Shown: positions 14,455-63,642 of the stretch, one piece after another
How the letters are laid out: every line of letters begins with the position of its first letter
Numbering within the stretch: the first letter of the stretch is position 1
DNA from: Blasia pusilla
Lineage: Eukaryota
NCBI GenBank assembly: GCA_050084515.1
Contig: CM114271.1
Location: 30,628,001-30,692,000, forward strand
DNA length: 64,000 nucleotides
Reading direction: 5' to 3'
Position numbers and translations under genes: made by a program
The notes under the pieces: model-generated
Told to the model about the DNA's origin: nothing
The model's input: only the letters and a program-made list of their open reading frames with translations
The model's database searches: none

Positions 14455-14456
14455 GC

Positions 14457-38691: not shown

Positions 38692-40049
38692 ACCCAAACG
38701 TCCGAAAAACATAAAATGTGTTCATCCATGCGATCAGTAGGTCCATTCCATTCTATAGCAGCGTCGTGATTCAGTTGTCCCGCGATACCAGCTCCTCACA
38801 CGTAGGAGCAGGTAATTCCCACGCTCATATTTCTTTCCCATATTTAACCTCCACATGGTGCTATGTGCATATGAGAAAAGTAGAATATCACAAACGAAAA
38901 TTTTTCTTGCTAAACTTATGAAGTTATAGAAGTTGTAGAACTTTAGCTCTATGTGAAAGGGCATCTCGTGAGATTGTACTATTTAGACATTCCGGACTCT
39001 AATTCAAAGTATTATTGCTTTGTGGGATTGATTGATTAGTTTCCCCACTTTCTATTCATTATTTGTACTATTCATTTCATTTCTCTTTCGAACACATTCC
39101 CATACTTAGAAATTAGGTCTTCGTCCAGCTCCATTGGGAGTCCATTTTTGCCACTTTTTGGATACATGGTGACTTCTAGTTTATGAATACATTTCATGCG
39201 ACTCCATTGCGATTCCATTGAGGCTCCGCGCAACTTTGCATGTCGTCATTCATTTGCAAGTCTGGATCACGGTTCTGCTATCGCCACTAAGACAACTCAC
39301 ATTGAGCTCATAACTAACTTGCAAATAGCGGCTTCTTTAACTTTCACTTTGTGACTACTGAGGCTTCTATTGGTGTAGCAATGCGGCATGAGACTCGTTT
39401 TACAAGTCATTTATGAGTCTTGAATCTCACTACAAGTCAGTTGTAAGACTCGGAACTCAAACCTCGATGGTAAATTCCCCTTTCGTCTCCAAATTGTTCC
39501 ATTTTGGTTTTTCCTCCTAGTAACTTTTTATGACTCCTTGCCTCACTTTGCAACTAGATCATTGTCATAATGGAGGTAAGTTTTGAGATTATTTTGGCTA
39601 GAGAATTTCTTGGGGGAATGTTTTTGAAGGAACATCTAGATGATAGGAGGTCATAGTATTAAAGATTTTTTTCCCAAAATTATTCAATAAGAACTGAAGG
39701 AAGAAAAAAAAAAGTCTTCCCAATTTTCTCAAAAAGAAATTGGAAGAAGTTAAATCCCCCTTGAGAAAGTGTTTTATAGACCTAAAAATAAGGCCAAATA
39801 AAATGAAAAAGGAGTAGAAAACAATTACTTTGTGAGTTGTTTGCAAGTCCTTGGCTAGTCCAAAACCACTACTTTTCAAGTACAAAAGAAATTATGTGGA
39901 TTTTCTATTTCTTTATTTTTTTATTATTATGACTCAATTTTTGTGACTTGTTTGCAAGTACAGATACTCAAAATTACCAGTAAAAAACTTGCAAAAGTGC
40001 ATAAATGGTTTTATTCATTTACAATTGTTGGACTCACAAAAATCTTCTC

Positions 40050-42230
40050 TATGTGAAGAAGAAGCATGGGAATTTGAGATTGTATATTGATTATCGTACA
40101 TTGAACAATGTGACAGTGAGGAATAATTACCCTATTCTGAGGATCGATGCTCTCTTTGATAGAGTGGCAAGGGCTAAGTATTTTAGTAGGATTGCCTTGA
40201 AGTCAAGATATTACCAGATTCAGATATCAGTAGAAGTTGAATGGAGAAGATTGCGTGTAGGACAAGATATGTTTCTTTTGAGTCTGTAATGATGCCCTTT
40301 GGTTCGTGTAATGCACTTTTGACGTTAACATTTATCATGTTGATGAACTCCATAGTTTGTAACGAGATAGATGCATATGTTATCATCTTTAATGATGGCA
40401 TATTGATCTATTCAAAGTCATTGGAGGAGCATGCTTGACATTTTAGGATGGTTTTGTCAAAACTTAGGATGAACAAGTTGTACGCAAATGTAGGAAAGGA
40501 GAAAAATCGGGATGGGCAAAATCAAGTTCTTGGGTCACGTGGTTAGCGCAAAGGGAGTTAGTCTAGGTATGGATAAAGTGAAAGCAATTTCTGAGAGGAA
40601 ACCATGTTCAACACTGAAGGGGATGAGGAGGTTCATCAGTGCAGTTTAGTTTTATCGGCCTTATATGAGAAACTTTTCAGTAATAACGAGAGGTCTTATA
40701 GATTGGACCGAAAATTTTGCTAACACGACATGGACCAAAGAAGTGAATGAGGCATTCAACTCAGTCAAGAAGCTCTTATCGCACGAGCGAGTGCTAAAAC
40801 TTCTGGAGTCTGACAAACCGTTCGAGGTACACACAGATGTTAGTGATTATGTGATTGCACGAATGTTGGTGCAAGGAAGACTTATAGCGTACGAGAGCAA
40901 GAAGCTTTGCGATAACTAATGCGAATAGCTTACTCATGAGAAGGAGTGGTGCATTTCTTGAGAAAGTGGCGTCATTATTTGGGACTTCACCGGACTTGAG
41001 TATTCACCGATAATATATCACTCAAGTATTTTGAGGCACAGGATTGAGTGACACCAAAGCAAATACATGGCATGATATATGAACATTTATTAATATGAAG
41101 TTGGTCCAAAATCCAGGGAAGAATAATGTCATTCGTGATGCGTTGAGTTGCACGGATGAATACATGCCATCGACAATACAAGTGTTGAGAGCAATGTTCC
41201 CTTAGGAAATAGATCTGCAGAGAGGGATCTGTGAAGGATATATGAAGGATACCCAAGCATTAGAGTACCTAATGAAGTTGAGGCTGGGAGAGAAGTTGGC
41301 TTACATAAGTTTGAGACATGAATTACTAATGTTTAAGTAGAGCAGGATCTATGTTGGTGACGGTAAGCTGTGGACGAAGGTGTTGATAGAGTGTCATGAT
41401 GGATCCTTGTTAGGACATAAGAAGAGACTTGACTAGGAGAGAAGTCTTGACTAAGAGGTTCTTCTAGCCCAACGTGAAGGAGTATGTTGCTCAGTTTGTG
41501 AAGACCAATGTGACATGCCAAGCAAATAGAGTTTCTTATGAGAAGAAATAAGGCTTACTTCACCCATTGAAGGACCCTTGTAAGGCATAAGAATGGATTT
41601 TATTACGAGTCTTCCAAAGTACGAGGAACACAATGCTTTACTTGTGATAGTTGACCGGTTCAATATGTTGTGGAGGTTTGTCTTGACGATGGCTTCTATG
41701 ACGGCCTGTGCAACTTCCCAACTCATCTTGGATAGCTAGTGGCGAGCACATGGGTTACCAAGGAGTATTTTTTAGATAGAGATCCAAAGTTTATCAGTGT
41801 CTTTTGGAAGCATCTATTTAGAAGATTGAGGATGAAGCTGAGTTTTAGTATCGTATTTCATCCTCAAATAGAGGGGAAAACTGAGAGAGTAAACTCGATC
41901 CTGAATCAATACTTAAGGAATTATGTAAGTGCAAACCAACGACATTGGGTAAGGTGGCTAAGTATGGTTGAGTATAGTTACAACTCAATCATACATTTTG
42001 CAACTAGAGAATCTCTGTTTCTTTTGGCGTATGGATGTGTGCCATTAGGGCCTCTTGAACAGGCCCTTTCAAAGGGAACTACATCGACACAGATCCGATA
42101 AGTAACAACAAAAGGTTTGTTAGCGGAGATGCAAGAACGTGAGAAGCGAACATAAGAGAGTCTATAAAAGGCTTGGCTAAGGTACGTTAAGAAGGCTAAT
42201 GAGAGTTGACGACAAGTAAGTTTCCAAGTA
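40050..42230 (+). mobile_element. Decayed Ty3/Gypsy pol (RT-RH-INT)
   Basis: KKKHGNLRLYIDYRTLN...NYPILRIDALFD, KPFEVHTDVSDY, DRDPKFISVFW...FHPQIEGKTERVN. Confidence 0.88.
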
Positions 42231-42759
42231 GGGGCTAACACTTGGGCTTGCCTTAGCGCCAACAAGGCACATCACTCTATCTTAGGGCTTGGGTTGATCT
42301 CACTTGTGATAGCATGAGTGAACCTAGTGACGCCTAAGTCAAATATGAGAGAAAACCAAAATAGTATATCTTGTGGACCTTGTAAACATGTGGGTTGTTT
42401 ACGTGTTGTAAGCAAGTGAAGTCTTAGGAAGAAGACTTAGTCAGCTTATTTGATATGTTAGGTTAGTTTGAAGGAATAGATCTAGGCTTATCAAAGAGGA
42501 GAAGCTAAATATTTCTAAGTGGTGCATGCAAAAACCTAAGACTTAAGCCAAAAGGGGAATTGCATGTTAGCTACCATAACTAAATTTGATGTCAAGGGGG
42601 CTTCCCAAAGAAACCTTAAAATTAAAAGGTTTACCTTGATAAGGATATCAACCTCTAAAGACGGGTGAATGTCACAACCCTCATAACCAAACATGTGCCG
42701 ATGTGAAACATCAAGACTCATGTAGGCTCAAAATAGGATAGATGCACATCAGAGAAGTT

Positions 42760-43195
42760 TCTTGAAGGAGACATGAGATATGAGACGCAAGTAAGGTTGA
42801 GTATTTCATGTATTTATGGTCTTGAAGAAGACATGAGATATGAGACGCAAGTAAGGTGAGTGTTTAATGTGTTAATGGTCTTGTCACGTCTATTAGGATA
42901 GATCAATGAGATCTAGTGGAGCGCCTTCAGAGATACTAGAGAATAGCATGAGGACGTTGAGGATGACCTGCAGAGACCACGAGTAACTTGAAAGAGCAGG
43001 TTTTCCCTTCATTTCAGCTCATTTGGAGCCATATAGAGAAACTTACTATTTGGGGTAAGTTTCCATTTAGAGTATAGTTGAATTTCCACTTTGGAAAATG
43101 ATCCTTGATCCGCTACAGGAGGCCAAGAGCCAAGGAGGTGACCTGTGAGCATAGGTTACCGTAGAGAGGGCTTGAGAGAGGGAAGGGAGTATACC

Positions 43196-43227
<32 letters not shown>

Positions 43228-43615
43228 CTCATTCTTTCTTTGTTGAACCTCTTGGCATGAGGTGGCGGAGCTATGGTCCTCCTTGCCTTGGGTGTGTAAT
43301 CTCTCTCATGTCAAACCAAACCTCTCATTAGGAGAGTGCGTTTGGTTTGACATAAGAGAGAGTGCACACCATGAAGAGCTAAATGTGAGATGTTGATGTG
43401 AGATTTGATCGATTTACAAAGAGAGAATGAGAGATATTGGTACTTCTCGTCTCGTTGTTTGGATGCCATGAGTTAGCATGGGATCGTGCATGTTTGTGTG
43501 TATGTTCGGTGACAGCAATGTATGTTTTGTAACGATGTGTATGCGCATGACAGTCTTAAAGGAGACATGAGATATGAGACGCGAGTAAGGTTGAGTGTTT
43601 AATGTGTTAATAGTC
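42760..43615 (+). repeat. Three about 60-bp tandem repeats; the third is interrupted by the 42882-43552 insertion
   Basis: Unit TCTTGAAGGAGACATGAGATATGAGACGCAAGTAAGGTTGAGT... Confidence 0.85.
42882..43552 (+). mobile_element. Solo terminal-repeat unit (671 bp) with the same termini as element 1
   Basis: Starts TGTCAC and ends CAGCAATGTATGTTTTGTAACGATGTGTATGCGCATGACA, homologous to the block A end. 4-bp TSD GTCT (42878-42881, 43553-43556). Confidence 0.85.
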
Positions 43616-44699
43616 GTGACTCAGGTGACTTGGACCAAGCGCAAACCAAGACTTGGGACTAGTCAAGTGCAAGAAGAGTGGGTTGCTAAAGAGGATGAGA
43701 ACCCAAATTGGACCTTGACTAGTGTTTGGGGTTTTACTGTATGGCGTTGGAAAGCTTATGCAAAGCCGATTCCAACACACTAGAGATCTAGACAAATGCA
43801 TAAGCAAAGATTGAGAAATCGTCCGAAAATGTAGGAAGGATTGTTGGGCTAAGGACCAAAAGGAGCAGCGTAAAAGTACTTTCCCAAAGGTAGGGGGAGG
43901 TCAAAGAACCCTAGCAGTATATATAAGGGAGAGGGTCTGCAAGGGTGCTTGGTACCCACTTTGGAGAGCCATGGGGAAAACCAAGGGAACGGAATAGATC
44001 GAGAGGTTGGCATTTGGGTGCGATCCCCAAGGCAAGTCCAAAGGAATGAATTTTAGAGGTATCCCTTGGATTCCAACCTACGACTCAATTCTTGGCTCTC
44101 GATTAGTGACTCATATGAGGTCCATTGGATAGTTTGGAGCACTTGGCATGCGAGCACCGTTTAACTTATTTAATATGCCTAGACTATCTGGAGAGTGTGT
44201 CCCAAGTCTTGGGAGACTTGCTAGTGTTGGGAAGTGAGGAATTAGGACCTCTAGAGCTTGATGAATGGCGAGAGTTGAGAACTCGGGGAATTGGAAACTT
44301 TGTTGGCTCAAACCAAGACCAATGAGAGTGTCTTTGGGTGTAGATCAGCAAAGTGAGCTTGATCTATTGAACATACACTTCCGAATCACGTGAGATTGAC
44401 ACGCAAGAGGAGTAGACGTACGATATGCATGGTGTTAATCGCCAAGCATTGGGCACCTAAAAGTGGGTGTCATAATTGGAGTTCAGAAAAATTTTGCTCC
44501 AATTTTGTTAGGTGTTGAAACTTGGAGAGTCTATCCCATTTTATATATGTAGATGAGAAAAATTCTCTCATAAGAAGGGATTACCACACTATTCTCAAAT
44601 ACATGAGCAAAAGTATTGATTCATTACAAGAAAGAAGGATGATAAGCTTATGGTGAGAAGACCAACCCAACGTCTTCAAGATTATCATTTATTTCTTAA

Positions 44700-46240
44700 A
44701 GGAGGGCCAAAGAATATTGAAGAGACAAGCTCAATGGTTGAAGCATTAGTATGTATCAAGAGCAATCAATGAAGGAAGAAATTGATGAGGAGCTTTTTCA
44801 ATGAAGAGGAATAAAACTTGGATTATTGTTACATTACCTCTAAGAAGAAAGCATTTGGGATATATTTGGATCCTAAAAAAAAAGGGAAACGAAATGGGAT
44901 TATTTCTAGGTAGGAAGCAAGATTAGTTGCTAAAAATGGACTATACCAAAACATTTTCATCTATCATTAAAATTCCTTGAATGTGGGTAATATTGATTGT
45001 GGTGGCTCAACAAAATTCAGAGATACACCAAGTTAAAATTGATGTAAAGGAAAATTTAATTTCCTTAACGGAATGCTTAATAAGGATACTAACATGAAAA
45101 TTCTTGAGGGATTAAAAAAAGAAGGATAAGAAAAATCCGGGTTGTCTTCTCAAGAAGTCAATTTATGGTTTAAAGCAATCTTTGAGGGTGTGATATCAAA
45201 AAACCAATTCATTTGTATTCCAAAAAGGCTACTTAATTAAAATCATCTATTGATTCAAATGTTTATATGGTAACCCTCAACCACCAAGGATTTGTGGCCT
45301 TACCTTTATATGTTGATGATACTACTATATATGTTTAATAATAAAGCTTTTCAATTCTATGAAAGTCTTAAGAGAAAAGTTGGAGAAGAGGATTATGAAA
45401 GAAGTTCATCAATTTCTTAGGATGGAAATCAAAGGAAATTGCGTAGAATGGACGAAAACTTCTCAACAAAGATACTATTACAAAAACTCAAGTGAATGGG
45501 TACATCTTTCGAACTGCGAACCAAATTATGGTAAAATATTGTGGCACCATACTAGAGGAGAAGAGCATGATACAAAGAGATTGACAATAAAATACGGTTG
45601 GAAGTTTAATGTGGGCACTGGCAAGGGCTCGGCGCGAGTTGAGGGCAGGCGGTGAGCCTGCACAATGGGGGCCAAGCCTGCCCTACATGCCGCACAAGAG
45701 GTGCGGGCTTTATCCACCCGGGTCTACGCGGCGGGCTTGGGTGCGGGTCGGGGTTACCGTGGCCCGCGCAGATATGTCTGTCAATAAGACGGACATAAGT
45801 CCGCGGACGCACACTTTGTCCGTGTGCAACCTTGGTGGAGGAGCAATAAGTTGGGCAAGCAAGAAACAAAAGTCTATTGCCTTATCTACATACAAAATTG
45901 AATATATGGTTTTAAGCAAAGGAACATTTGAAGCCATTTGATTGATGAGACTGCTTATAGATTTGGAATAAATGAAAAAAAGCATGAATATTATAAGTGA
46001 TAATCAAAATGTATTGGCTTTGGTGGAAACAACAAAGCATCAGGATTACAACAAACATATCGATAATCAATATCATTATATAAGTAAATGGGTCAAAAGG
46101 AGATAATTGTAACTACAAATAATAAGATACAAACCTTAGACTATAATTGTGATACAAGTTATATGATATAGGATATATTAACTAAGAGTTTTAGTAAAGA
46201 AAAAAATAAAATTCAAGTAATAAATTAGGATTGAGTTATA
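44700..46240 (+). mobile_element. Decayed Ty1/Copia RT-RNase H
   Basis: ARLVAK, LLKKSIYGLKQS, LYVDD, GGAISWASKKQKSIALST, SDNQ...KHID. Confidence 0.88.
45592..45834. mobile_element. MITE fragment of the same family as 27493-27933
   Basis: GC-rich insert in the Copia relic ending CCGTGTGCAACCTTG, the reverse complement of CAAGGTTGCACACGG. Left boundary approximate. Confidence 0.65.
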
Positions 46241-48246
46241 TGAAATAACTTAATATTAGAACGAGGAAGATAATCTATTGTTATAGAAATCATTTCACAT
46301 GGTGGAAAAGAAACAGGAGAGATGCTCCAGGAGATTTTATTCCTCCCTAACATCTGTCACCAAGGACGTTTCCCTTGCACACATAGACAGAACTTAATCA
46401 AAGTGTGATTTTTGAGTCCAAATCTGGACACTCGGACAACTTTTACGGAATAAACAGCGATCCCGACAGCCAAGAGTCACCCTTTGCTCCGGTATACCTT
46501 TCTCACGGTCGAAACTGAGCTTAGGTAGATGGTGCATAGTCTGTTGACTGACACCAAGGAGTTCCAAACTGGCCGACGGTCCATTGAACGTCAAAGCGAT
46601 GCCGTTTAGGGCTTTAGGGTTTAGGGTCGAATTATGAGTACACCCCTCCTCTTCATTCGCTCTTCACCATATGTATACACACTTAATTTTGGTGCAAGTG
46701 AAAACTTTGACATAATGATGCGGAGTTATTGGACACACCTGAATCTTTAAATATTAAAATATAACCAGTGTGCGGCCAGTGAGAGGGGGTTACTACGAGA
46801 AACTACGAGAAAAAAAACGACCCTTATGCGTAGAGGCCGTAACAAGAGATAGGTCTTTTTAATAACACGTTGAATCTGGTTGTTAAGTGAATGCTATAGT
46901 TTTATTATTTTTAAAAAGTTAGTTATTTTGTTTTGATACCATCTTTCAATAGATAAAAGAAAATAATTCATTTGATCAAATTTTTAAATCTAAAATAGAG
47001 ATAAAAATTTTCTCCCAATCGAACTTGAAAATGAAATAATAAGAAAAATTATTATTTTGAGAATAATTCTTGTCTCACATTTTTTTATTATGTCTTTTAG
47101 ATTTTTTTTCCCAAGTTGTGAATTAAATTTCCCTCCAAACTAAAATTGAAAATTAATTTTTATACAAATTTTCTTACATGTACCTTGAAAAAATCCGTTT
47201 AAATTTTCACTAGGATCAGTAAAATTGAGAACACAGAAATTTTTAATTGGGATTTTTCAATTATTAATTTTTTTAAAATGAATTGAAACGTTCTTTCATT
47301 CTACTCTTGTGGTTAGTACAAGGTGAAATTAAAAAAAAGACCAATCGCATTCATTCATCTGAAATTTCACAATGGTCACTTTTGAAGATGTTTTAGGTCC
47401 CTTATTATTTTGATATATAAATTATAGGACTAAATTCCCACTGTCTAAATTCCTGATTAGTCGTGCAGGGTAAACTAACTCAACCTCGGGTTAGAAAACC
47501 GAGGATGAAAAGGAGCGAGGGACATTTTTGCCTCGCGAGCCGATCAGCCGACTCTCAAAGTAGAATGACGAATCGTTTTAGTGACATCTGTGGGAATGAG
47601 AAGCACGGGCGTCCAAAGCTGGCTGTCGGGAGATTCTGCAATCCATTTCATGTGTTTCTGTATACTCGGTTAGGTAAACTAGATATCGGTGTGCCTTTAG
47701 ATTCGGAGACTGATAAGAAGAATCGTACAAGAAGGAAAACTTTGCCGAATCGGGCCTGCTCCTCGACGTACCCGGTCTCTTCAAGGAATCTCGTATGAAG
47801 CAAAAATTCCAAGTCTAAAGCCAAGAGAGCAGCTATCTATTAACGGCCGAGCAAGTCGAGGTATTCCTACAGAGAGTTACGCGTTTGTCAAGATCTATGT
47901 ATCTGACAGTGTGTATGTACATGACAAGGCCTTATTTGCAACAACATCGAGGAAAGCAGGTCACTTTGACCCATCTGTTACAGACTCTCCCGTTGGTGAG
48001 AAAGATTAGATCGCGCTTGGTTGTGACCGGCTTCGGTGACACGGGAGCAGCTGGGATGCACCGAAATTGGCGCCAGTGGGTGCTGACCATCGACATCAGG
48101 GAGGAGTGTCTCGACAGAGACACAACCGGCGGCCAAGTTCCGGATCTGGGAACACTCTTCGCAGAACCTCTGCCCTCCTCATCGAATGCCTAAGTACTCT
48201 CATAGTTAGAAAGCTAGTGTTGACTTCACATCATCGATGAATCCGG

Positions 48247-50066
48247 TTAGTGCCAGCTAGCGGTTCTTCTTGACCTTACGCGGTCGGTCCTTTCTGCAAC
48301 CTTCATTTTGCTCATTCTCTTCTGTACCTGTTCCAATTGAATCTGCCTAAGCTTGTCCGAGACCTCGCTGATATTGGGTCGGTTAGTCGGCTCCGAGCTA
48401 CAGCACTTGAGTGCGAGCTCTACCACCTCCCGGATCACATCCTTCAGGCATTCTTTACAGGGAAGTTTCGACGAATCGCTGCAGGGGCACCAGATGTAGG
48501 AGTCGACCGTCTCCTCCCAAAGCCCGAGCACCGACATCTCACTGACAAGATCTGGAAGAAATGTCTTCGATCGGCTCGGTTCCCCTGCTCTCAAGCCCGT
48601 CACGAGCTCCATGAGCACCACTCCAAAGCTGTATACATCCGCTGTATCTGTCAACTTGCCAGTTCTCTCGTAGTGAGGATCCGTATACCCGCGAGATCCT
48701 TTCACCTTGGTATGGCAGTAGCTCCGCTGTTTCTCGTGAGACACGGCTGCAGCAATACCGAAATCTGCAAGCTTGGCTCTCCGGCTCATGTCCAGAAGAA
48801 TGTTGGTGGATTTCACATCGCGGTGGTAGATGGCAATTTTGCTGTTGTAGTGTAGCGCCGTGATGGCGTCGGCGACATCGATAGCAATAGTCAATCGCTC
48901 GTCCCACGCCAATCGTTCCGAGAATTTTCCATGTAAGTGCTGTTCCAAGTTCCCGTTCGGAACGTACTCGTAGACGAGAAGGGGATCTTGTTCATAGCAC
49001 GAGAAACCGATCAGCTTCACCAAGTGGTCGGATTTTGGGAGACTGCGCTGGAGAAATACTTCGTACAAGATTTCCTCAAGTGAGTGTCCCTTCACTGCTT
49101 TGTACCTCTTCACAGCCACTCGCTGGTCATCGAAGAGGAAGCTTTGAAATACTTGTGCCACCTTCCCGCTTCCCACCAGTTTGAGCTCCGAGAAGAAATT
49201 TGTAGCGCTTCTCAGCTCCCTGTATGAGAACCAACTGCATTGAATAGTTGCCGCCCTTCGCCAGTACCACTGTGCAAACCGAACAGCTGTAGGACCACAC
49301 GAAAAAATCTTAGACTGTATTCCGTTCTGAGACTCCGGTTACAGTCGTGACAACCGTTTCTGCAACATGACTTCCGAGCTTAACTATGGAGCGGGCAACT
49401 TCGATAGCTGGTAAATTTTCTGATCTTAGTTGACCTCAATCCGGATGGTGTCCACATGAACAAAGGAAGATGACTGTGCAACCATACTCGAGAACCTAAT
49501 AGCTCTGAACAGCGAGAAAGTTGGATCTACAGTCCTAATGGATAATGAATGATTCCTCTTCTCCGCAAAGGCTACAGCGACACAAGACTATACTGGATAT
49601 AATTGTTTAGTCGAAGCTGACGAACCGTGTACTCATTCCCTGGAATAGCTAAATGAAGCGATCACTTTCGAATGATCAAGTAGACATTACCTTTCTTCTT
49701 CTCCAACAGTGTTGAAAATCTGACGAAGGGAGGCGCGCAAGTCAAGATAGAAGACTGACCTCCTTCCAGATTGAAGTATTCGAAGAAGAACTGAATGAAG
49801 TCACTCCAAGTTGCCACCTGAAGGGGGCACGCAACCGCATATTTGATATGCGTCGACGCCAAAAGGAGAGTGTGGTCAGCTGACAGTCCCTGCTGTATGG
49901 CCCAATGACTAAAAAGATTGAGCCAGAGTTCGGCCTTGCTCGGGCTCTCATCGCCGGAGAACGGAGGCACGATGATGTCACCAGCCTTGGCGCGTGGAAT
50001 GAGTGTGTCCAAGCACATAAAATTGAACTCGCTCCGAAATTCCTCGCTCAGTGCATAATGTACCAT
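48247..50066 (-). CDS. RLK/Pelle-family Ser/Thr kinase with gag-like N-terminal exon (about 471 aa; exons 50066-49691 and 49286-48247)
   Basis: Kinase motifs FSYRELRSAT, GSGKVAQV, VAVK, LLVYEYVPNG, HRDVKSTN, DFG, DVYSFGVVLMEL. Donor AAG|GTAATG and acceptor CTACAG|CT are both phase 1 and join in frame. Further upstream exons cannot be excluded. Confidence 0.8.
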
Positions 50067-52446
50067 CGTTAGACCTCTAGTTTCACTTGGCGTCTTCAGA
50101 CACACGGGATGCACGGCAAGAGGAAGGAATGGGCGAGAAAATATTCACTTGAGGCAGTAATCTCGCGAACTGTGGCACAGAAATGCCGATAATGCTTCTC
50201 GAATCAAGTTCGTGCTTGAGGCATGAATCAGAGAGTTGAGGGAATCTACGAGCGGGCACGAATGCGAGAGGAACTCCAAATGAATTTGAAGAAGCGTTGC
50301 TGAAACGAAGTATACAGCCGAGGAGCTTGAAACAGGTAAGGGCACGGGCTCCAGAAGCTGCCTAGGGAAGAGTAGCAAGACGAGGTCTGTAGGAACTCAA
50401 GCTCGGCAGGTTTTAAGGACATCCGGAAAAGAGCATAGAAGTCACCGGGAGGAGAATGCGCGGTGAAATCGACCGATTCGATCATATTCCTTCATACTAT
50501 TTCTACCCTAACGAATGCATACGGATACCGTACAAAGTGTCCCTTCCTCAACTTGTTCCATAGCCACCGACCCAGCTCGCCTCCTTTAAGGTTTCCGATG
50601 TCCTATTTTTAGACACATTTTAGTGATCTCACATGGCTGAGAATCAGGACATAACTATTAGCAATATGACAGGCTACAATCTCAAACCATTTTAAAGAAC
50701 AAGAGGCCAAACATGGAACTCGAAGTGATCATTGAATGTATAAAAGGGAAGCGCTCGCATTAAGGTGAGGAATCTCTTTCTCCTTCCATCTCATAGACAA
50801 AATTACACTTCCAGTCTGTAGGGGGATTGAAGTTTGTCGGTTCTGCAGGACTGGAAACATGGGTCATTATCCGCTGCGAGACTCCACACATCTTATCTAA
50901 GTTCCAACCTTTCGAGTGACGAATTGTTTATCAACAGGAGTCCAGAAATGGATACTTGCTCGGAACCGGAATAACTATTCCGGAGTCGAGGCTTGCTTGG
51001 TAAGTGCGTGCAGAAGGTTGGGGATTTCAGAGTCGATAGTTCAAGGATCTCTGTTGATTTAGTGAGGAGTTTCATCGAAAATCTGGTAAGAGTTTCAAGT
51101 GAACGTAAAACCCCAATTGTGGAAATCATGCGGCAACTCTTTGGTGTCCTCAGGTGAAATTATGTTACGGGTTTCCTACTAGCTTTCCCACAGCGTGTGT
51201 CCGGGTTGATCCCCCCGCGCCTCCCACCTCCCACCTCCCACCTCCCCCAACCCCTCACCGCCCTATTAAAAGCACCTGCAGTGCCTGGCAACATGGGTTC
51301 TGGCGATTTGCCTGGCGGTTCTCACTCTCTCTCCACCTGAGACGATCAACGAGATTATGATATCTTCGTGCGCTTGGATTGGACGAGTGAATGAATCAGG
51401 AGCTCCCGCAGCCCGCAGTATCAAGATTCGGGACACAATTAGTCGGCACCTGCGGAGGTACTTTTAAAGTTATTGGAAGGGGATGGGTGCTGTATCTGTA
51501 ACCATCAATTGAATTGTTTGGACTATCGTCGCATCGTTTAGAGAGATCCCAATCCATAACGACTTATCTCCGCCTAATATCCTCATTAGTCTCGATTTCC
51601 GGGAACTTTCGTTACCGATAGCCCATTTTTTTGTCTCCTTTGACCTTGATCGAAAACTGTTGAGCTCATCATTTCGTTGCCCTACTTAGTCCAAGGTTCA
51701 TGATATGGCGTTAACGAGGGACACTGCCAGCAGATCGCAATCCGCCCTCAGAACAATCAGAACCCAATCGTTCGAAGCATGTGGACATGTGGCATTATTA
51801 GAATGGTGGACAAGCTTAATTTGGATCCATACTCATTGTCCAGGTAACGAGTTCGGTGGACTTTCAGTACGCTACATTGAATTTGCACTCTTTGGCCTAG
51901 AGGCCTGCTCTTCAACGAAGAGAGCATGTACCCGGAGTCCCCTGCAATACGAGAAAGTTTCTCTATTTGGGGTCCACGGCACATAGGACTTCCCAGATGG
52001 GTCTTTGCCAGAAGATAGACTCCGTAGAAAGGGGACGCTCACATGGATGATGGACTTTCTACTAGGCTGGAATCGTTATGTATTTAGTAGCCTTTCCATG
52101 TGGGGGCACATGTAACACACACACACATTAGAAAATGTTTTACCCGTCCGCTCTCGGACCTTACGTGTGTAGTGTGCTCCACCTTGCTATGTGTAGTTCC
52201 TATGTGCATAAGAAGGTGATAGGAGAATAGAAAGCATGAATAAAAAGGGGAAACCCATTGGAGAGTACAAAAGAGGGGGACTTAAAGAGTGGAGTCGGCG
52301 AGGGCCACAACTGGCCCGGAAAAAGAAAAGGGGGACAACCTCCTATTGCCTGAGCTCACAACATCTGCAATACTTAGAAAGACATGACCACCACTAAGTG
52401 GGCCTCTAGTGTCGACGTCTCCCACAGCCTGAGCCCGCCGTGAAAG

Positions 52447-52997: not shown

Positions 52998-54424
52998 TTT
53001 TAACAAGAAATTTTTTTAACTATAGTAATCCACGCATAAACACCCGTGTTTATTTTATCATTAACATTTGTGCAAGGGGGATCCATATTCACTCATATTT
53101 GTGCAAGGGGGATTAAAACCTATGTGGATATATCTCCATTAATGTGTATGCACATCCAAAATATATTTGTAGGAATTCAAGATGTTTTCATTTTATTAAT
53201 CCATGGACCATATTCTCCCCTAAAGCACCTACTAATCAAATTGATTTTCTCGGGCTATATGGGATACTAGATCCCATCTACGAGCACATTTTACAGTGTG
53301 AATGAGGAAAATTTGTAAAATATATTGTGGTTTATAGCCTCAATGGGTTGTAGTAGGGGAGGAGGTTTTTAAGTTCTTTAGGGTATCTACCACCACAAAC
53401 TATAGGGATGGATATAAAGTTTTTGAACGTATGAGTTTGTAGGCTTGGAGCAATTTGAGACATAAGATGATCAAGGTGGTTCATGAATCATATAGATTGG
53501 TCGATCACCAATCTATGGTATTATTGGGGGATAACTTCTTTATTTATAAACATCTTTGCATTTGATATATGGCAATGGGGCAATTAGAAAAAAATTGGTA
53601 GCATATATTCGAATAAATTGGAAAATCACTCAATGACATGTGAATCACACAAGATGTACGTGATCCACTTCTCGTGTGGAAGCTACATCCATGATCAAAC
53701 ACTCTCGGATTGCTTCACTGAAATTTGCACACCTCGTACATCACGAGTTCTCCTATACTCACTCTCAAGCCTTAAGTCAAGCTAGAATCCGAGCGCGCGG
53801 AAAAATTACTCCGGACCCTAATAAGGCTTCAGCTAAATAGCCATGAAACCGCTATATGTACCGTACCACAGAGGCCAGCCCCTACACCACCTCATCCCCA
53901 CCGGGGCGGTCATAAATGTTGAGCAAGCTCGCCTTTCAGGGATCTTCATGTCACTCTTCTAACTAATAGAATTTTAGTCACATAGACAACAACACAACAT
54001 TAGTAGAAAACGGACCATTTTAAACCCATATATTTGACTTGTGTTACTAAGAGTTATTTGAATTACACTAAGTTACTCTAGGACCAATCAATTGACTCGT
54101 GAATTACTCACAAGATAGTTTATTCATAATTAGTGACTAGTGTAAACTTAGAGAGGGAGGAAGGGTTTTGGATCTGGGTGGAATGACCAACCATTACTTA
54201 ATTCCAATACCAATTTGCAGTCATGGAAGGGTTTTTTGACTTCGAACACAAAACCCATATTTTTATTACTTTTCTAGAAGAATATCTTACATGCTACATT
54301 TTTGGATATAGGTTGAATAGGATGAAAGGATATACATGAGGAGGAAAAGAAACTATATAAGTGGAAACTAATGGACCACTGCTTAGGTAATTAAACCTCA
54401 TGATATTTTTCTTTAGGGAGGGTT

Positions 54425-54742
54425 CATACCTTATGTAGGGCCGTAGTGTCTAGGTAGAGATGCGGTTTCATACATAGGGTTGAGGGTTATGCAATTGAGG
54501 GTGACTTTTCCAATAGGGCCCGCTCTTAGGTTGGAGGATATAGTGTGGAGTGCACTCAAAAAACAGTTAGTTCTTTGAGTTGAGCCTGTTGCGTTGGGAG
54601 TTAACCTTGGTAGTGAGAAGAGCTCTTGGCTATGATGGTTCCCGCAAGCTTTGACCTGGATTCTCCCATCGTGGAGTGGGTTTGGCTTGATTGTATGTGA
54701 TTCTATATGTGTTTCATGACTGTAGGTCTTTCACAGATTTCA
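54425..54742 (+). repeat. Block B1 of element 2 (lacks the first about 50 bp)
   Basis: Direct repeat of 63693-64000. The right boundary is inferred from the putative PBS at 54743-54754. Confidence 0.85.
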
Positions 54743-56229
54743 CTCACAGAACTAGAGTAGATCGATGGTAGCTTCGATTGTGGATCAGTAGGATCTGGTT
54801 AGGGTTGATTGTGTACTCAGCCGTGGATGTTTGTGGCTTGTGGCCTATGTTGGAGGTGGGAATCTGGTGCGTGATTGGTTGAGAAAGAAGCGCCTTGCTG
54901 AGAGCTTTGCAACGCGCTTTAGATCGCCAGATTTCGTTAAGGGAGTTGGAAGTTATCAAGGATTGAAGATACTGGTTCGTGTTCGACGGTTTCCTGATGT
55001 AGAGAGCTTGGAGTGCGGAAGCTCTGTTGAAGTTCATCCAGATCGGGTGACAGGTTCCTGTTGCTACTTGTATTGGGATCTTATGTGAAGCTATCTGCTT
55101 GAGTGTGTAGAGTGTTGCGGATTTCTGCAGGCATGAATCTGGGCGGAAGCGCTGTCGGATTTGCAATTCTGGAGATGTATGGACAACAAGTTTGTCTGAT
55201 TTTTATCTTGGAGTACAGAGCTTGGTTGTAGCTGATTTTTTGTAAAGAGATAGCTATGGTGGTCAATTGAATTTTGGTCGAAAAAAAATCAATTTTGGTT
55301 GAGGATTTGTGGAGTAATTGGTGATTGGAATTTCGCGGACTAGCTCAAGGTCTGGCTATGGTGGACAGCAGATCGGAGGGGCTGGTTGGTTGGTGATTTG
55401 TCTGTTGTTGGAGACGCCTATCCCATTGGGGGCGCCCTGGTTGGGCCTCTCTCCATAGCAAAGCATGGCGATAGGGGCATGTCTCAAGCATTTCTCGAGG
55501 CTTCGAGGCAACTCGTGGTAGCTCGGAGCGAGTGGGCGTGAGAGGCGGAGTAAGGAGCAAGGAGCAAGGAGCAAGCTTGCTTGCTTGGGCGTGAGGCAGT
55601 TTTTGCAAGATTTGTGATTTGAGTGTTGCATAACTGGTCATCCATCTTTGGGCTATTATGCCTGGAAGACGCTTAACTGCTGAGTTCTTAACTATGCCAA
55701 TGTACACACTGGTGTAGCTCATTTGGTGTTGTTCGGAGATGTGTTAGGCGCTTTATGCATCTCAGGTTTTTGGTTGATGGATCTCTAGCGCATAGTAGGG
55801 TGTAGCCTCTCCATGCAAGTGATATTTTCAGATGCTACGAGTCCGACTAGCACGTCATCGACCGCGGCGGAGTAGCTATTGCGTTAGAATTGTGTGGTGG
55901 GTTCTGTGGATTTAGGGGGCGCCACGTTTGGTGGATTTTGTTACCTTGATTTCCATTTGCGATTGGAGGGTTGTCGTTGGACTTCCTCTGTTTGGATCCC
56001 CTCCATCGTTGCTTCTTGCTTGGGGCCCATTGTTAGGGATGTTGATTTCCATAGTAGTGTTACTCTTGTGTGCTACCGGTAGTGAGACTGGAGTGATGAC
56101 CAGTAGACCGTGGGAGGCTTCTTGTGGTGATGAAAGGTTAGGTTGCCTACACCCATAGCTATTAGAGCTAGAATAGTACAGCGACATCAACGTCACTTGG
56201 TTACTTAGTGGTGGTAATTTGATGGTGGT

Positions 56230-57582
56230 GTGGCATCGGTGTTGGTCATCACGGAGCTGTCTGGTGGTCTGGTTGGGGACCGTGGTGCGGACAGTGGTGG
56301 TTTTACACGGAGTGAATTGAGGTATCGGCTACCTTTTCCACTTCCGACAGTTGATGAAGAGGAGGACGAGGGTGTTCCAAACACCAAGTCTTCTACGTTG
56401 TTATCGAGTGTTGCAGCTCCATTGATCTGGGACATGGACGGGATATATAGGGCCATGAAGGGCCCAGGACGATACTCGGATGCAGTGGGCACCATTGAGT
56501 TGGAGGACTTCATGCACGAGTTTGATACGTGGTGTGATATGCAGATGTTGCGGAACGCCACGTTGTTTACACCCTTCTTGGCTTGGAAGGGGTTGTTTCA
56601 GCAGTTGGAGGGGCCACCCATGGATGATTACCATGAGTTTAGGAAGGACCATGTTGCTGAGATTGAGGCGTGGAGAAAATATTGGTCTCCAGGTTATGTG
56701 TCTATCACCCATGGTGGTATTGGTAGTAGTGCTACTACTATGCTAGCCAGCCCGACGTTGAGTGGTACGAGTATGAGCCGGAGTGGGGGTACCAATGGAG
56801 GAACCCATGGAGGTACCAGTGGGGGTACTAGTGCCCCACCATCGTTCAGCCCGATTGCAAAGTTCTTCAACAGGTTGAAGAAGAACTATCAGGGAGTGAA
56901 GACACAGAAGTTGAGGAGTCTTCAGGAATTTGAGCGAAAGACTGGTGAGAGTCTTCGTGAGTCATACACTCGTATGCGACGCTTGATTTCACTTACCCAG
57001 GGTGTGACTGAGGCTCAATAAGTCCACTTTTGGTATGGGATCTTGGATAGAGAGTTGCGCCGCAAGGTACGTGATGCTACTCTTATGAGTGATGATTCAC
57101 CCACATTGACCCATGTGTTTGCTCTATCTGAGAAGATTGAGCTTAACATGGTGGAGGAGAGAGTGGTGACATCCGCATTCAATAGGGATACAACTACTAC
57201 TTCTCGTGTTCAGCAGTCCACCTCACAATCTCATAGTAGTGATGGTGGTAGTAGTAGTGGGAGTCGTGGGGGGTACACACGACCTCAGTCAGGTCCTAGA
57301 GGGTCACCTGCGTAGAGACCATTGCCTTCATTTGCTGCCCCGCAGCAAGGACAGTCATGTTGGACATGTGGAGGTGATCATGTTAGGAGGTTTTGTCCCC
57401 AAGAGGATGGGACACGGACTTTGGAGGATGGGCCTCAGTCGGCCACAACTCAGTGTGATCATTGCGGGAGACCAGGTCATCCTCGAGAGCGTTGCTTTGA
57501 TCTTCATCCAGAGTTGAGATCAGGCTGCGGCCGTGGTGGAGTAGCTCCGCGAGGCCGAGGTGGTAGGGATGGTAGAGGTTGA
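56230..57582 (+). pseudogene. gag of element 2
   Basis: GTIELEDFMHEFDTWC, ERKTGESLRESYTRMRRL, CWTCGGDHVRRFC, CDHCGRPGHPRERC. Confidence 0.85.
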
Positions 57583-58241
57583 CCAGTGGTTGGAGAGCCT
57601 ACGGTGGCTACCCCTACCACTACAACAGAGTTAGCTATGGTCGTCGAGATTGAGCTTGATTGGAGCAGAGTTGGCTACTATGGTCGGTATCCAAAGAAAG
57701 AGCGTGTTCGGGAGCAAGGGCTTCCACCTCTTATGGAGGGGATGATCTCTCTTATATGGCGAGTGCAGCACAGGTTGAGGCATCAACTGCAGTTATGAGA
57801 GGAGCCACTCGAGCGTCAGAGCCACGTGGTGCTACTGTGGAGTTGGATCCACAAAGGGGTGAGGCTGGGAGGCAGGCTAGGCTTCCCGAATCATTCTTGT
57901 TGTTTTAGGTGCTTAGGACTCCATCCATGGTTCCTATGCAGCCTATTGAGCCGACAGTGGGGACAAAGGCATCTACATCGCGTGTAGTAGATACGGATGC
58001 AGCATCTAGTGCAGTATTGCGGATGGCAACTTCAGTGTTGGGATCCCCATTGTTTTCGGCCACGGAGCTGATGGCTTTAGGAGTTGATGAGGTGGATGAG
58101 GGTGTTGCGGTGGAGCGACCCTTTTTGTCAGGTGTTGCATTGAGTACCAGTGCTACTTGGCAAGCAACAGCGGCAAAGATGGATGCATTACCAGCTTGAC
58201 GAGCCATTGATCGTGAGAGGCTTACACCTGGTGTATGTAAG

Positions 58242-58691
58242 TTGGACAACCAGAGTGGGATATTCCGATTGGTGAGTCCTATAGGTCAGGTGTATAGACC
58301 AGATAGAGTCTTGTTAGACTCTGGCGCCCAACCTTTGATGTTGGGAAAGGCGGCATGTATTGGTTTGGGTATTCGGAGGTCAGAGCTTGAGCCTTGCCCA
58401 TTCCAGATTCAAACATCACTTGGAGGAGCCAAGGATAGGTCTCAATTCATGACACGGGAGAAGTTGTCTCTACAGTTGAGACCAAATCATGCGACTGATA
58501 GCTCTCGGTTGGGAGTACCTGTAGTGGTCACATCAGCCGAGTCGTATGATGTACTACTTGGAGGAGCAGTATTGTATCCGATGGGTTTTCAGATGGACTA
58601 CTGGACTGAGACAGCGTCTTATAGACCTGGTTGGCAGTCCGGGGATGGACGTATGAGCCAGGTTCCTGTGAGATTTATTTATGGGGCTTGA
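58242..58691 (+). pseudogene. Aspartic protease of element 2
   Basis: VLLDSGAQP and YDVLLG. Confidence 0.9.
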
Positions 58692-59045
58692 CCAAGAGGG
58701 TCTTCCCCAACGGTGTTAGCATCTGTGGCTGGTTTTAGTGGAATAGTCACTTGGCCAGGAGACTTTTTGGAGGGTAATGTTTCTGCTATGGATTCTCCTG
58801 TGCATGAGGAGGTAAAGGAGGTCCCTAGTTTTGCAGTAGTGGCATCCTCATCGTTGGATGTGCCACTTTGGAGTTCAGGCGGTGCACTACGGCAAGAGGC
58901 TGATCGCCTAGTGTAGGAGGCTTGGTGTGAGGCTGTTATACCTCACGAGGAAGAGGAGGCCCCACGGCGGACTCCTACTTCTGGTCCAGTTGGGTTATCC
59001 CCTTTGGATACTACACCCATTGTATGGCAGTATCCGCCAAAGGGC

Positions 59046-59990
59046 ATTTTTGTGCTAGATCTCTTTGGTAGGATTAGCACTAGTTTGGCTGCAGTGTTGC
59101 AAACCGGTATTCCTGTGCAGAGATACGTGTATGTGGAGCGAGATGAGACGGCCCAAAGAGTCTCATCCCGACATATGGGTCAGTTGATGCGGAGATATCC
59201 TCAGTTGTTGCCGCCATCAACTATTCGTGGGTACCAGCGTGCTTTGCCGTCACACATTGCATTGTTGGAGGCGCAAGATCTTGAGAGGGTTGGTCCTGTG
59301 GATTTGGTGATTGCTGGATGGCCATGTCAGGGTCATACACGTGCTGGTCGTGGTGAGGGATTACACGACCCTAGGTCTCGATTGTTTTGGGAGATGTTAC
59401 GGGTGTTACGACATCTTCGGGTTCATCAGGCTCGTGCTCCAACTTACATTCTGGAGAATGTTCCATTGTTGGGTGACACTCAGACCCAGATGATGGCGAG
59501 TGTTCATGAGGTGCGGTCTTGGATTGTACCAGCGGTGTTGTTGGATGCAGCGCGAGTTGGCTCGCGTTCACATCGTCCACGCTTGTGGTGGAGAAACTTG
59601 TTGCCTAGGGAGGTTCTACGTCGAGCATATGATGCAGTGCAGCGGGATTCTTGCCTTACAGTGGATAGTATCTTGGATACTGGGCGACTTTCTCAGGTGG
59701 TGAGGGTTATTGATCCGTCACCCATGGTAGTGGTGAACCGTGTGGGCCAGCCTAGGATGGCACTATGTAGATTTCTGAGTTTTCCCTCGTCACATGCCTA
59801 CAGGGAAGGTGGTTCCGGGCTTGTATGGGATTCTCATGTGCGACAGTTGGTGGAGCTTAACGCTGATGAGAGAGAGCGTGCGATGGGATTTGCTATTGGT
59901 GTGATAGCGGTTGCTTCCATTTCTGAGGCTTCAGGACGTCATGTGTTGGGTCAAGCCATGGACCTGAATTTTTTGACTTGGATTTTGAGT
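59046..59990 (+). CDS. DNMT3-like C5 cytosine methyltransferase domain of element 2 (no stop within the domain; surrounding polyprotein disrupted)
   Basis: VLDLFGRISTS, YVERD, DLVIAGWPCQG, YILENV, LLDAARVGSRSHRPRLWWRNL, ERERAMGF, GRHVLGQAM. Same frame as PR and RT. Confidence 0.92.
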
Positions 59991-60245
59991 CTTGGTATGG
60001 CCGAGTAGCGTCGACTTCGGACTATGTCTATGGGTCTTCCACCCCTTGTGATGAGCTCGATGGCTACCGGGACGGTAGAGACATCGGCAAGGGGCGAGGA
60101 GAATAGTATTTTGCATCCTTGGAGTAAATGGGATGTAATGGCTGGGAATGTGGAGTTGGTTGCTCATGTTGGTTGAGAAGTTATTTGCTTAGATGATGGT
60201 GTAGCTAAGGGTGTACCATCTTATGAGGGGGTTATCTAGTAGCCA

Positions 60246-63361: not shown

Positions 63362-63535
63362 AAGAGGTAGATGACTTGATCTTTGCATGATATGGATTAC
63401 AGATGTGCGACGAACGATGGGGCAATCTAGTACCCGGCCTTCTGATTCGTGCACCCACGAAGGTGTATAGCATGTAGTAGATGTATAGGGCTACTTGGGA
63501 GTTAGAGGGACCTAACCGCCAGTTATGGGGGCGAG

Positions 63536-63640: not shown

Positions 63641-63642
63641 AC

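What the first reader, a model, noticed from the sequence alone, without database searches (positions are those of the whole stretch)
48247..50066. Gag-capsid-like exon spliced in frame to an RLK/Pelle kinase
The upstream exon encodes IVPPFSGDESPSKAELWLNLFSHWAIQQGLSADHTLLLASTHIK...VATWSDFIQFFFEYF, resembling the retrotransposon gag pattern (P.F.G...WL...LA...TW..F...F...F). Canonical phase-1 splice sites join it to an intact RD kinase, with no signal peptide or evident transmembrane segment. Inference: a domesticated capsid domain used for oligomerisation or as an integrated decoy/sensor, in the manner of plant kinase-fusion immune proteins.
Basis: partly seen in the sequence, partly recalled or inferred. 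Interest (0 to 1): 0.7.

Follow-up and report, generated by a model that had tools for sequence, protein, structure and literature searches.

The report
Capsid-like domain fused to liverwort kinase
This is a real, expressed liverwort gene for a cytoplasmic receptor-like kinase whose conserved 100-residue N-terminal domain weakly but consistently resembles the N-terminal lobe of a retrotransposon capsid, which if confirmed would be an old and undescribed capsid-kinase fusion.

Summary
On the minus strand, an ATG at 50066 opens an exon that is spliced in phase 1 to a 345-codon exon encoding an intact RD-type RLK/Pelle kinase, with no hydrophobic segment. They also show a second, slightly commoner donor at 49760 (50 reads plus one contig). 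That second donor matches the annotated orthologues and gives 448 aa instead of 471 aa. The N-terminal domain is therefore residues 1-102, not 1-125.

The same domain-plus-kinase architecture occurs in Marchantia polymorpha (MpRLK-Pelle_WAK_LRK10L-7, -3, -9 and one more), Riccia and Calypogeia. These fall into at least five paralogous clades. The domain is about as conserved as the kinase.

Capsid ancestry is suggested but not proven:
- Family profiles put Drosophila Arc capsid N-lobes on top of the PDB (E 0.06-0.5).
- Ty3_capsid is the only Pfam family among the weak hits that fits the other lines (4 of 7 divergent members, best E 0.0011, below cut-off).
- Protein-language-model neighbours of two members are all gag families.
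- The window's own sequence and its own clade give no signal.

I put capsid N-lobe origin at about 0.65-0.7. The function is inferred to be a docking or self-association module for the kinase.

The parts
50067..50372 (-). 5' UTR (approximate 5' end)
   Evidence: RNA depth falls to zero between 50372 and 50432, and molecules end at 50372 in X10. It holds one 6-codon uORF at 50224. A further ATG at 50422 lies at or beyond the transcript end.
49761..50066 (-). N-terminal domain, codons 1-102. It comprises a conserved leader (residues 1-33, 49968-50066) and a capsid-N-lobe-like part (residues 34-99, 49770-49967).
   Evidence: The ATG at 50066 is the first Met of the open frame. All orthologues start at the same place. 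48 of 102 columns are invariant among 6 sequences. The profile aligns with Arc N-lobes over positions 34/35-103.
49760..49760 (-). Last base of exon 1 in the short isoform (first base of the split codon). The donor GTCAGT follows at 49759.
   Evidence: 50 junction reads and one contig join 49760 to 49286. The orthologue proteins agree with this junction.
49691..49759 (-). Optional exon-1 extension of 69 nt (23 codons), used when the downstream donor GTAATG at 49690 is chosen.
   Evidence: 37 junction reads join 49691 to 49286. The extension is absent from the orthologue proteins. An open frame of 23 codons is not unlikely by chance.
49287..49690 (-). Intron common to both isoforms (404 nt; 473 nt for the short isoform). 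GT..AG, phase 1.
   Evidence: Joints table and the depth drop; sequence.
48247..49286 (-). Exon 2 coding part: linker, kinase and C-terminal tail, with the stop codon at 48247-48249.
   Evidence: tblastn with the Marchantia orthologue gives 75% identity over 344 aa.
48349..49191 (-). RLK/Pelle protein kinase domain. Motif codons start at: GSGKVA 49173, VAVK 49119, HRD 48825, DFG 48765, DPHY 48681.
   Evidence: Pfam PK_Tyr_Ser-Thr 3.4e-36 and Pkinase 2.1e-35. Motifs located. Best solved relatives are FERONIA, RIPK, Pto, PBL2, CERK1, BIK1, BAK1 and IRAK4.
47800..48246 (-). 3' UTR, which continues below the stretch that was laid.
   Evidence: Same-strand RNA depth of 17-63 down to 47800. An X1 contig running from 49113 extends 210 nt beyond 47800.

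Best explanation
This is the window organism's orthologue of Marchantia polymorpha MpRLK-Pelle_WAK_LRK10L-7. It is a soluble (cytoplasmic) RD-type RLK/Pelle serine/threonine kinase with no ectodomain or membrane span. In their place, a single 5' exon encodes a conserved domain of about 100 residues.

That domain most likely descends from the N-terminal lobe of a Ty3/gypsy-type retrotransposon capsid. It has no C-terminal lobe and no zinc knuckle. It was captured as one exon before the liverwort classes diverged, and the fused gene then duplicated into several paralogues.

Inferred mechanism: the lobe acts as a protein-protein docking module. Capsid N-lobes bind each other, and mammalian RTL8, which is an N-lobe alone, binds the N-lobe of PEG10. 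The liverwort domain would either bring kinase molecules together for activation-loop trans-phosphorylation or dock the kinase on a partner.

Two alternative donors 69 nt apart place 0 or 23 residues between the module and the kinase.

Shown: gene structure, expression, both junctions, kinase family, conserved fusion. Inferred: capsid ancestry (about 0.65-0.7) and the docking function.
For: Gene and splicing:
- Open frames and translations.
- 37 and 50 junction reads in three RNA runs, plus a spliced contig.

Kinase:
- Pfam hits at 1e-35.
- Catalytic motifs GSGKVA, VAVK, HRD and DFG are present.
- The best solved relatives are plant RLKs/RLCKs, followed by IRAK4, among the 60 listed.
- No membrane span.

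Conserved fusion:
- All 5 hits of the first search carry the N-domain plus a kinase.
- The exhaustive phmmer search over 1.84 billion representatives found 12 hits at E<=1e-3.
- 6 of those 12 carry the kinase. The other 6 are 119-203 aa.
- Further fusion proteins come from Riccia and Calypogeia fissa.
- In the tree the window groups with Mp LRK10L-7 and a Riccia protein (support 91/93), inside five deeper clades.
- N-domain versus kinase identity to the window runs in parallel in 10 homologues (71/77 ... 35/39 %).

Capsid likeness:
- The 17-sequence profile found 4 PDB sequences at E<=10. The top three are Drosophila Arc2, Arc2 and Arc1 capsid N-lobes (E 0.15, 0.18, 0.51), aligned over the whole lobe.
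- The 7-sequence profile of divergent members found 3. The top two are Arc1 (E 0.06, 0.12).
- P0018 alone has Arc1 as its top hit (E 0.31).
- Pfam Ty3_capsid matches 3 of 17 and 4 of 7 members, best E 0.0011, on profile positions 13-92 (the N-terminal half). Retrotrans_gag matches 1 member.
- ESM Atlas feature neighbours with a Pfam family are DUF4939/RTL8, DUF7041 and Retrotrans_gag for Mp LRK10L-7 residues 1-102.
- For Mp LRK10L-9 residues 1-110, whose domain is about 30% identical to the window's, they are DUF4939, DUF7041, Retrotrans_gag, DUF1759 and Ty3_capsid.

Precedent for an N-lobe-only protein binding another N-lobe: PMC11684626 (abstract and passages read).
Against: - No capsid match reaches significance. 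The best Pfam score is 17 bits against a cut-off of 29.1. PDB E-values are 0.06-0.5.
- The window's own domain has no Pfam hit at E<=10 and no PDB hit.
- The profile of its own clade (8 sequences) has none either.
- P0010 alone has none.
- For P0012 an unrelated IscU ranks above Arc1.
- CTD4 matches as many members of the 17 as Ty3_capsid does (3 of 17).
- Atlas scores of 0.88-0.93 occur for 4-10 in 100 shuffled proteins, and the shared-feature counts (110-136) are low.
- No bona fide gag protein appeared in the 12 phmmer hits or in two profile searches.
- hhalign against ORFs of the retroelement in the same window gave nothing.
- The fold was not predicted.
- There is no evidence at all on binding or oligomerisation.
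Confidence: 0.6

Rival explanations
1. The N-terminal domain is a liverwort-specific helical domain with no retrotransposon ancestry, and its likeness to gag is chance or convergence of a small aromatic-rich helical bundle. It would still be a regulatory or docking module of the kinase.
For: - All capsid matches are below threshold.
- The window's sequence and its own clade give none.
- No gag protein appeared in any homology search.
- Atlas scores are in a range that shuffled proteins reach 4-10 times in 100.
- In the window's clade the stretch corresponding to the third helix is shortened.
Against: Three different methods and libraries (HMMER against PDB, HMMER against Pfam, language-model features) each land on the same superfamily out of thousands. 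They align in the same register, from the F-x-G motif to the T/S-W-x-D/E-F helix. Arc hits sit 3-5 bits above the best unrelated hit in both profile searches.
Confidence: 0.3
2. The fused capsid lobe is an integrated decoy or sensor. It co-assembles with Gag of active Ty3/gypsy elements or a reverse-transcribing virus. The kinase then phosphorylates Gag or starts a signal, restricting the element.
For: - The architecture is a capsid-N-lobe-like module joined to an intact RD kinase.
- RTL8, an N-lobe-only protein, enters PEG10 particles and lowers their yield (PMC11684626).
- The family has expanded into several paralogues.
- Ty3/gypsy-type elements are present in the same window.
Against: - The domain is about as conserved as the kinase over deep divergences. 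That does not fit the rapid evolution expected in an arms race.
- It shows no similarity to the ORFs upstream of the protease of the local element.
- No binding test was possible.
Confidence: 0.1
3. The exon-1 to kinase link is an annotation or assembly artefact, with two separate genes or a chimeric transcript.
For: None found.
Against: - 87 junction reads in three RNA runs and a spliced contig from a different study.
- The same fusion in annotated proteins of four other named liverwort species in three genera.
- One continuous minus-strand coverage block.
Confidence: 0.01

Closest known systems
MpRLK-Pelle_WAK_LRK10L-7 of Marchantia polymorpha (P0003). Paralogues are LRK10L-3, LRK10L-9 and MPTK1_3g06070. 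Relatives occur in Riccia and Calypogeia.
   Same: Same architecture and length (446 aa against 448 aa) and the same start. Identity is 71% in the N-domain and 77% in the kinase part. It is the nearest neighbour in the tree.
   Different: These records are named only for their kinase. The precomputed Pfam lists show no family on the N-terminal 100 residues. The WAK_LRK10L label is the source's and was not tested here. Typical WAK/LRK10L kinases have an ectodomain and a membrane span (recalled), which these lack.
Arc / dArc1 / dArc2 and Ty3 capsid N-terminal lobe (Pfam Ty3_capsid PF19259, Retrotrans_gag PF03732)
   Same: These are the best, though sub-threshold, sequence matches. They cover the whole N-lobe in one register.
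   Different: There is no C-terminal lobe, nucleocapsid zinc knuckle or pol (no CCHC; only about 30 residues separate the domain from the kinase). In the window's clade the third-helix region is shortened. Scores are below family cut-offs, so membership is not established.
RTL8 / FAM127 (Pfam DUF4939), a mammalian domesticated gag reduced to the capsid N-lobe
   Same: It is the top named language-model neighbour for two family members. It has the same size (about 110 aa) and is likewise an N-lobe alone. RTL8 binds the N-lobe of PEG10 (PMC11684626), which gives a working model for docking.
   Different: RTL8 is a free-standing protein of eutherians. Here the lobe is fused to a kinase, in liverworts, and would be an independent capture.
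Co-opted plant gag genes Crtg8-11 (Wang and Han 2021, PMC8321522)
   Same: These are host genes derived from LTR-retrotransposon gag and retained over long times.
   Different: All four are in angiosperms, and that section states that none had been documented in plants before. The main text does not mention kinase, Marchantia, liverwort or bryophyte (abstract, section 7 and a term search of the main text were read; supplements were not seen).
Plant kinase fusion proteins and integrated decoys of immune receptors (recalled, not from a call)
   Same: A kinase joined to an unrelated non-kinase domain.
   Different: No genetic or biochemical link to immunity here. The domain is slowly evolving and the family is old.

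Membership tests
RLK/Pelle (IRAK-type) protein kinases, RD class | Protein kinase domain above the Pfam cut-off | tested here: met
   PK_Tyr_Ser-Thr 125.3 bits (cut-off 23.1) and Pkinase 122.8 bits (cut-off 31.7)
RLK/Pelle (IRAK-type) protein kinases, RD class | Catalytic motifs: Gly-rich loop, VAIK lysine, HRD with Arg before the catalytic Asp, DFG | tested here: met
   GSGKVA, VAVK, HRD and DFG are found in the translated protein. Activity itself was not assayed.
RLK/Pelle (IRAK-type) protein kinases, RD class | Closest relatives are plant RLK/RLCK and animal IRAK kinases | tested here: met
   Best PDB sequences: FERONIA 2.5e-42, RIPK, Pto, PBL2, CERK1, BIK1, BAK1, then IRAK4 at about 3e-34
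Receptor-like cytoplasmic kinase (no ectodomain) | No signal peptide and no membrane-spanning segment | tested here: met
   Maximum 19-residue Kyte-Doolittle mean is 1.20. No dedicated signal-peptide predictor was available.
WAK_LRK10L subfamily of RLK/Pelle | Kinase domain nested inside the WAK/LRK10L clade in a kinome tree | not tested
   This is only the name that the NCBI records give to the Marchantia orthologues.
Retrotransposon Gag capsid (Retrotrans_gag PF03732 / Ty3_capsid PF19259) | Sequence match above the family's curated cut-off | tested here: not met
   The window's domain matches 0 families at E<=10. The best relative, P0012, scores 17 bits against a cut-off of 29.1. Ty3_capsid matches 3 of 17 and 4 of 7 members, best E 0.0011.
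Retrotransposon Gag capsid (Retrotrans_gag PF03732 / Ty3_capsid PF19259) | Profile match to solved capsid N-lobes | tested here: inconclusive
   Arc1 and Arc2 are the top hits of two family profiles, at E 0.06-0.51. The profile of the window's own clade has none.
Retrotransposon Gag capsid (Retrotrans_gag PF03732 / Ty3_capsid PF19259) | Four-helix N-lobe fold | not testable with these tools
Retrotransposon Gag capsid (Retrotrans_gag PF03732 / Ty3_capsid PF19259) | Bilobed capsid (N- and C-lobe), usually with a CCHC nucleocapsid | tested here: not met
   Only about 30 residues lie between the domain and the kinase. There is no CCHC motif.
RTL8-like N-lobe-only domesticated gag | Binds the N-lobe of a full Gag or of itself | not testable with these tools
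This needs a bench test.

The most novel reading that the evidence does not exclude
Liverworts captured a Ty3/gypsy capsid N-lobe as the first exon of an RLK/Pelle kinase before their classes diverged. They now use the fusion as a Gag-recognising kinase: the lobe co-assembles with Gag of retroelements or reverse-transcribing viruses, and the kinase marks or signals the assembling particle. This would be a capsid-sensing innate defence built from the element's own capsid.
Probability: 0.1. Interest if true: 0.85.

Novelty: new variant of a known kind. Interest (0 to 1): 0.6.

Why it matters
If the capsid ancestry is confirmed, three things would follow:
- It would be a gag co-option in bryophytes, far older than the four angiosperm cases listed in the systematic survey I read (PMC8321522).
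- As far as my searches show, it would be the first capsid lobe fused to a protein kinase. Searches found no paper describing it. Subscription journals are not covered by those searches.
- It would show that a single capsid N-lobe can be reused as a protein-docking module in a signalling enzyme.

The family has orthologues in Marchantia polymorpha, which is an established model plant (recalled). Deletion, interaction and kinase assays there would be ordinary experiments.

Tried and rejected
Tools that were closed or held nothing:
- Whole-genome search: no genome is held for this window.
- Complex prediction for a homodimer of the domain: not available.
- The listing of cluster members, to name the sources of P0008-P0018: switched off. 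The taxa of those proteins remain unknown.
The stored homologues P0003 and P0019 were used instead.

Searches that led nowhere:
- Second copy in the window: tblastn and an hmmsearch of the family profile over 786 six-frame ORFs found only the gene itself.
- hhalign of the family alignment against three ORFs of the Ty3/gypsy-like elements in the window: probabilities below 1%. Those ORFs have no gag Pfam hit either.
- Profile word-index searches for longer proteins found only domain-kinase proteins and no gag: 9 hits at E<=0.01 and 5 hits at E<=10.
- The search for related loci with the divergent alignment on viral contigs: the alignment was too variable to search with.
- The search for related loci with the close-orthologue alignment on metagenome contigs: 351 pattern matches, none confirmed.
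- The search for related loci with the local element's RNase H on viral contigs, meant to fetch unbiased gag sequences for a profile-profile test: 6 pattern matches, none confirmed. The profile-profile test against a gag alignment could therefore not be made.
- Repeats around the gene (44-54 kb): none of 40 nt or more.
- The look-up of sequencing runs: no RNA holder was listed in the index. The RNA evidence comes from laying the raw-read runs.

Readings rejected:
- A remnant WAK ectodomain. There is no signal peptide, no Cys-rich pattern and no Pfam hit.
- An annotation artefact, refuted.

Full report
**1. What is in the sequence**

The feature lies on the minus strand. An ATG at 50066 is the first Met of a 160-codon open frame.

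A second open frame of 363 codons (49338..48247) holds a complete protein kinase domain. Pfam gives PK_Tyr_Ser-Thr 3.4e-36 and Pkinase 2.1e-35.

**2. Expression and splicing**

No indexed RNA holder was listed. I laid three raw-read stranded RNA runs carrying the same species label (X8-X10, one study, three samples) and one contig run (X1, another study) on 47800-50600. About 6-12% of each raw run was read.

- Exons are covered at about 12-90 in the direction expected for a minus-strand RNA. The fully intronic bins are at 0-3.
- A second junction, 49760 joined to 49286, has 50 reads (24, 6, 20) and one 799-nt spliced contig in X1.
- The second donor is GGAG|GTCAGT. It is in the same phase and lies 69 nt upstream in the transcript.

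The gene therefore makes two in-frame isoforms of 448 and 471 aa, with about 57% and 43% of junction reads respectively.

All annotated orthologues correspond to the 49760 junction: their proteins pass directly from the end of the domain to the linker. Whether the 23-residue insert matters is open. Its frame being open is not unlikely by chance.

The 5' end is near 50372. Coverage continues below the stop codon to beyond 47800, which is the 3' UTR. Fixed differences from the window show that the RNA comes from another strain. The only one inside the coding sequence (49165) is synonymous by my reading of the codon.

**3. The kinase**

- The motifs GSGKVA, VAVK, HRD and DFG are present.
- The best solved relatives are FERONIA, RIPK, Pto, PBL2, CERK1, BIK1 and BAK1, followed by IRAK4. 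This is an RD-type RLK/Pelle kinase.
- The highest 19-residue hydropathy mean is 1.20, so there is no membrane span. The N-terminus is not signal-peptide-like. The protein is a receptor-like cytoplasmic kinase.

**4. Relatives**

- A word-index search with the 125-aa exon peptide found 5 proteins, all with the same N-terminal domain followed by a kinase. They are Marchantia polymorpha MpRLK-Pelle_WAK_LRK10L-7 (71% identity) and -3, two from Riccia fluitans and one from Riccia sorocarpa.
- An exhaustive phmmer search of the 102-aa domain against 1.84 billion representatives found 12 proteins at E<=1e-3.
- Of those 12, 6 have the kinase. The other 6 are short, 119-203 aa.
- Of the short ones, P0010 is 88% identical to the start of a 424-aa Calypogeia fissa kinase. 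P0014 shares its domain with the 565-aa P0017. P0009 reads through the donor.
- P0012, P0018 and P0023 have a different conserved continuation and may lack a kinase.
- Profile searches added Mp LRK10L-9, MPTK1_3g06070 and further Riccia proteins.
- Every named source is a liverwort, from both Marchantiopsida and Jungermanniopsida. The unnamed ones could not be looked up.

A maximum-likelihood tree of 15 full-length rows puts the window with Mp LRK10L-7 and its Riccia orthologue (support 91/93). It resolves five deeper clades, four of which contain both a Marchantia and a Riccia member or a Calypogeia member. The short proteins were left out of the tree.

The fusion is therefore old and has been kept through several duplications. 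Identity to the window is about equal in the domain and in the kinase part for all 10 homologues compared, from 71/77% down to 35/39%. Among the six closest sequences, 48 of 102 domain columns are invariant. This is protein-level evidence of constraint. No codon-level test was possible because no orthologue DNA was at hand.

**5. Is the domain capsid-like?**

Against:
- The window's own domain has no Pfam family at E<=10 and no PDB hit.
- The profile of its own clade (8 sequences) has no PDB hit at E<=10.
- No homology search returned a gag protein.
- All matches listed below are under the usual thresholds.

For, from PDB sequence searches:
- A profile of 17 domains from all clades (A2) found only 4 PDB sequences at E<=10.
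- The first three are capsid N-lobes of Drosophila Arc2 (0.15, 0.18) and Arc1 (0.51). The fourth is unrelated (SYCP3, 5.4).
- The alignment spans profile positions 34/35-103 and the entire 73-residue N-lobe construct.
- A profile of the 7 more divergent members (A4) found 3 sequences. The first two are Arc1 (0.06, 0.12), then ADAMTS-5 at 1.7.
- Single sequences gave mixed results. P0018 has Arc1 on top (0.31). P0012 has IscU at 0.15 above Arc1 at 0.52. P0010 has nothing.

For, from Pfam:
- Ty3_capsid matches 3 of 17 members. CTD4 also matches 3 of 17. Retrotrans_gag matches 1, and six other families match 1 each.
- Among the divergent set, Ty3_capsid matches 4 of 7. Retrotrans_gag, DUF624 and DAAD match 1 each.
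- The best E-value is 0.0011, and the match falls on profile positions 13-92 of 198, the N-terminal half.

For, from the ESM Atlas feature search:
- For Mp LRK10L-7 residues 1-102, the named neighbours are DUF4939/RTL8 (0.91), DUF7041 (0.90) and Retrotrans_gag (0.88).
- For Mp LRK10L-9 residues 1-110, the named neighbours are DUF4939, DUF7041, Retrotrans_gag, DUF1759 and Ty3_capsid (0.85-0.91).
- That these families belong to one gag clan is recalled, not tested.
- The tool warns that such scores occur for 4-10% of shuffled proteins.

Taken singly, each line is weak. Together, three methods over three libraries select the same superfamily in one register. I put capsid N-lobe ancestry at about 0.65-0.7.

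The window's clade has a shortened stretch where the third helix would be. This may explain why it gives no signal of its own.

The decisive fold comparison could not be run.

**6. What the domain is not**

- It has no C-terminal capsid lobe. Only about 30 residues separate it from the kinase.
- It has no CCHC knuckle.
- No retroelement genes lie beside it, and there are no repeats around the gene.
- It shows no likeness to the ORFs of the Ty3/gypsy-like elements elsewhere in the window.

If it is capsid-derived, it is a long-domesticated fragment. It is comparable in extent to mammalian RTL8, a 113-aa N-lobe-only protein that binds the N-lobe of PEG10 and lowers particle yield (PMC11684626; abstract and passages read).

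**7. Mechanism (inferred)**

The domain most likely serves as a protein-protein docking module for a soluble RD kinase. It would act either by self-association that favours trans-phosphorylation or by binding a partner.

The decoy/sensor reading, in which it binds retroelement Gag, is possible. It is not favoured by the slow evolution of the domain.

No binding prediction could be made.

**8. Novelty**

The orthologues are annotated only as kinases, and no family is recorded on their N-termini.

The systematic survey of deep gag co-option lists four plant cases, all in angiosperms. Its main text does not mention kinases or bryophytes (PMC8321522; abstract, section 7 and a term search were read, supplements not seen).

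Six literature searches found no description of a gag-kinase fusion or of this domain. Papers outside the open library were not searched.

**9. Verdict**

- The capsid interpretation is plausible but unproven.
- The functional interpretation is untested.
- Interest is 0.6.

Noticed in passing
window 9045-14265 (+), with a second copy at about 58200-63358 (+): A Ty3/gypsy-type retroelement carries accessory domains. The domain order is protease-like, C5 DNA_methylase (PF00145: 10040-11122 and 58917-60005), RVT_1, RT_RNaseH, integrase and PHD finger. The reading frame is broken by single in-frame stops. DNMT-carrying retrotransposons are described for dinoflagellates and charophytes. The listing for PMC5890265 shows no mention of Marchantia (listing and abstract start only).
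   Followed up: partly
window 6001-16000 and 54001-64000: There is strong strand asymmetry over the retroelement copies: GC skew +0.18 to +0.32 and mostly negative AT skew (G>C and T>A on the coding strand). A further G-rich stretch at 40001-46000 has positive AT skew. The cause is unexplained. It could be the elements' native composition or strand-biased deamination.
   Followed up: no
window 15368-18941 (+): A Helitron-type element: Helitron_like_N 1.8e-55 (15368-16426) and PIF1 helicase 2.3e-31 (18507-18941).
   Followed up: no
window 30563-32380 (+): A 606-codon open frame with an RRM_1 domain (2.6e-13), probably a host RNA-binding protein gene.
   Followed up: no
proteins P0012, P0018, P0023 (not in the window): These are short relatives of the domain (164-220 aa) with no kinase in the recorded sequence. 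They share a conserved continuation after the domain. They give the best Ty3_capsid and Arc1 scores of the family. They may be free-standing or differently fused versions of the domain. Their sources are unnamed.
   Followed up: partly
window 47964-48175: In the 3' UTR the RNA runs differ from the window by a fixed substitution (47964), small insertions at 48003-48005 and loose read ends at 48128, with a dip in depth at 48082-48175. This looks like strain differences rather than splicing.
   Followed up: no
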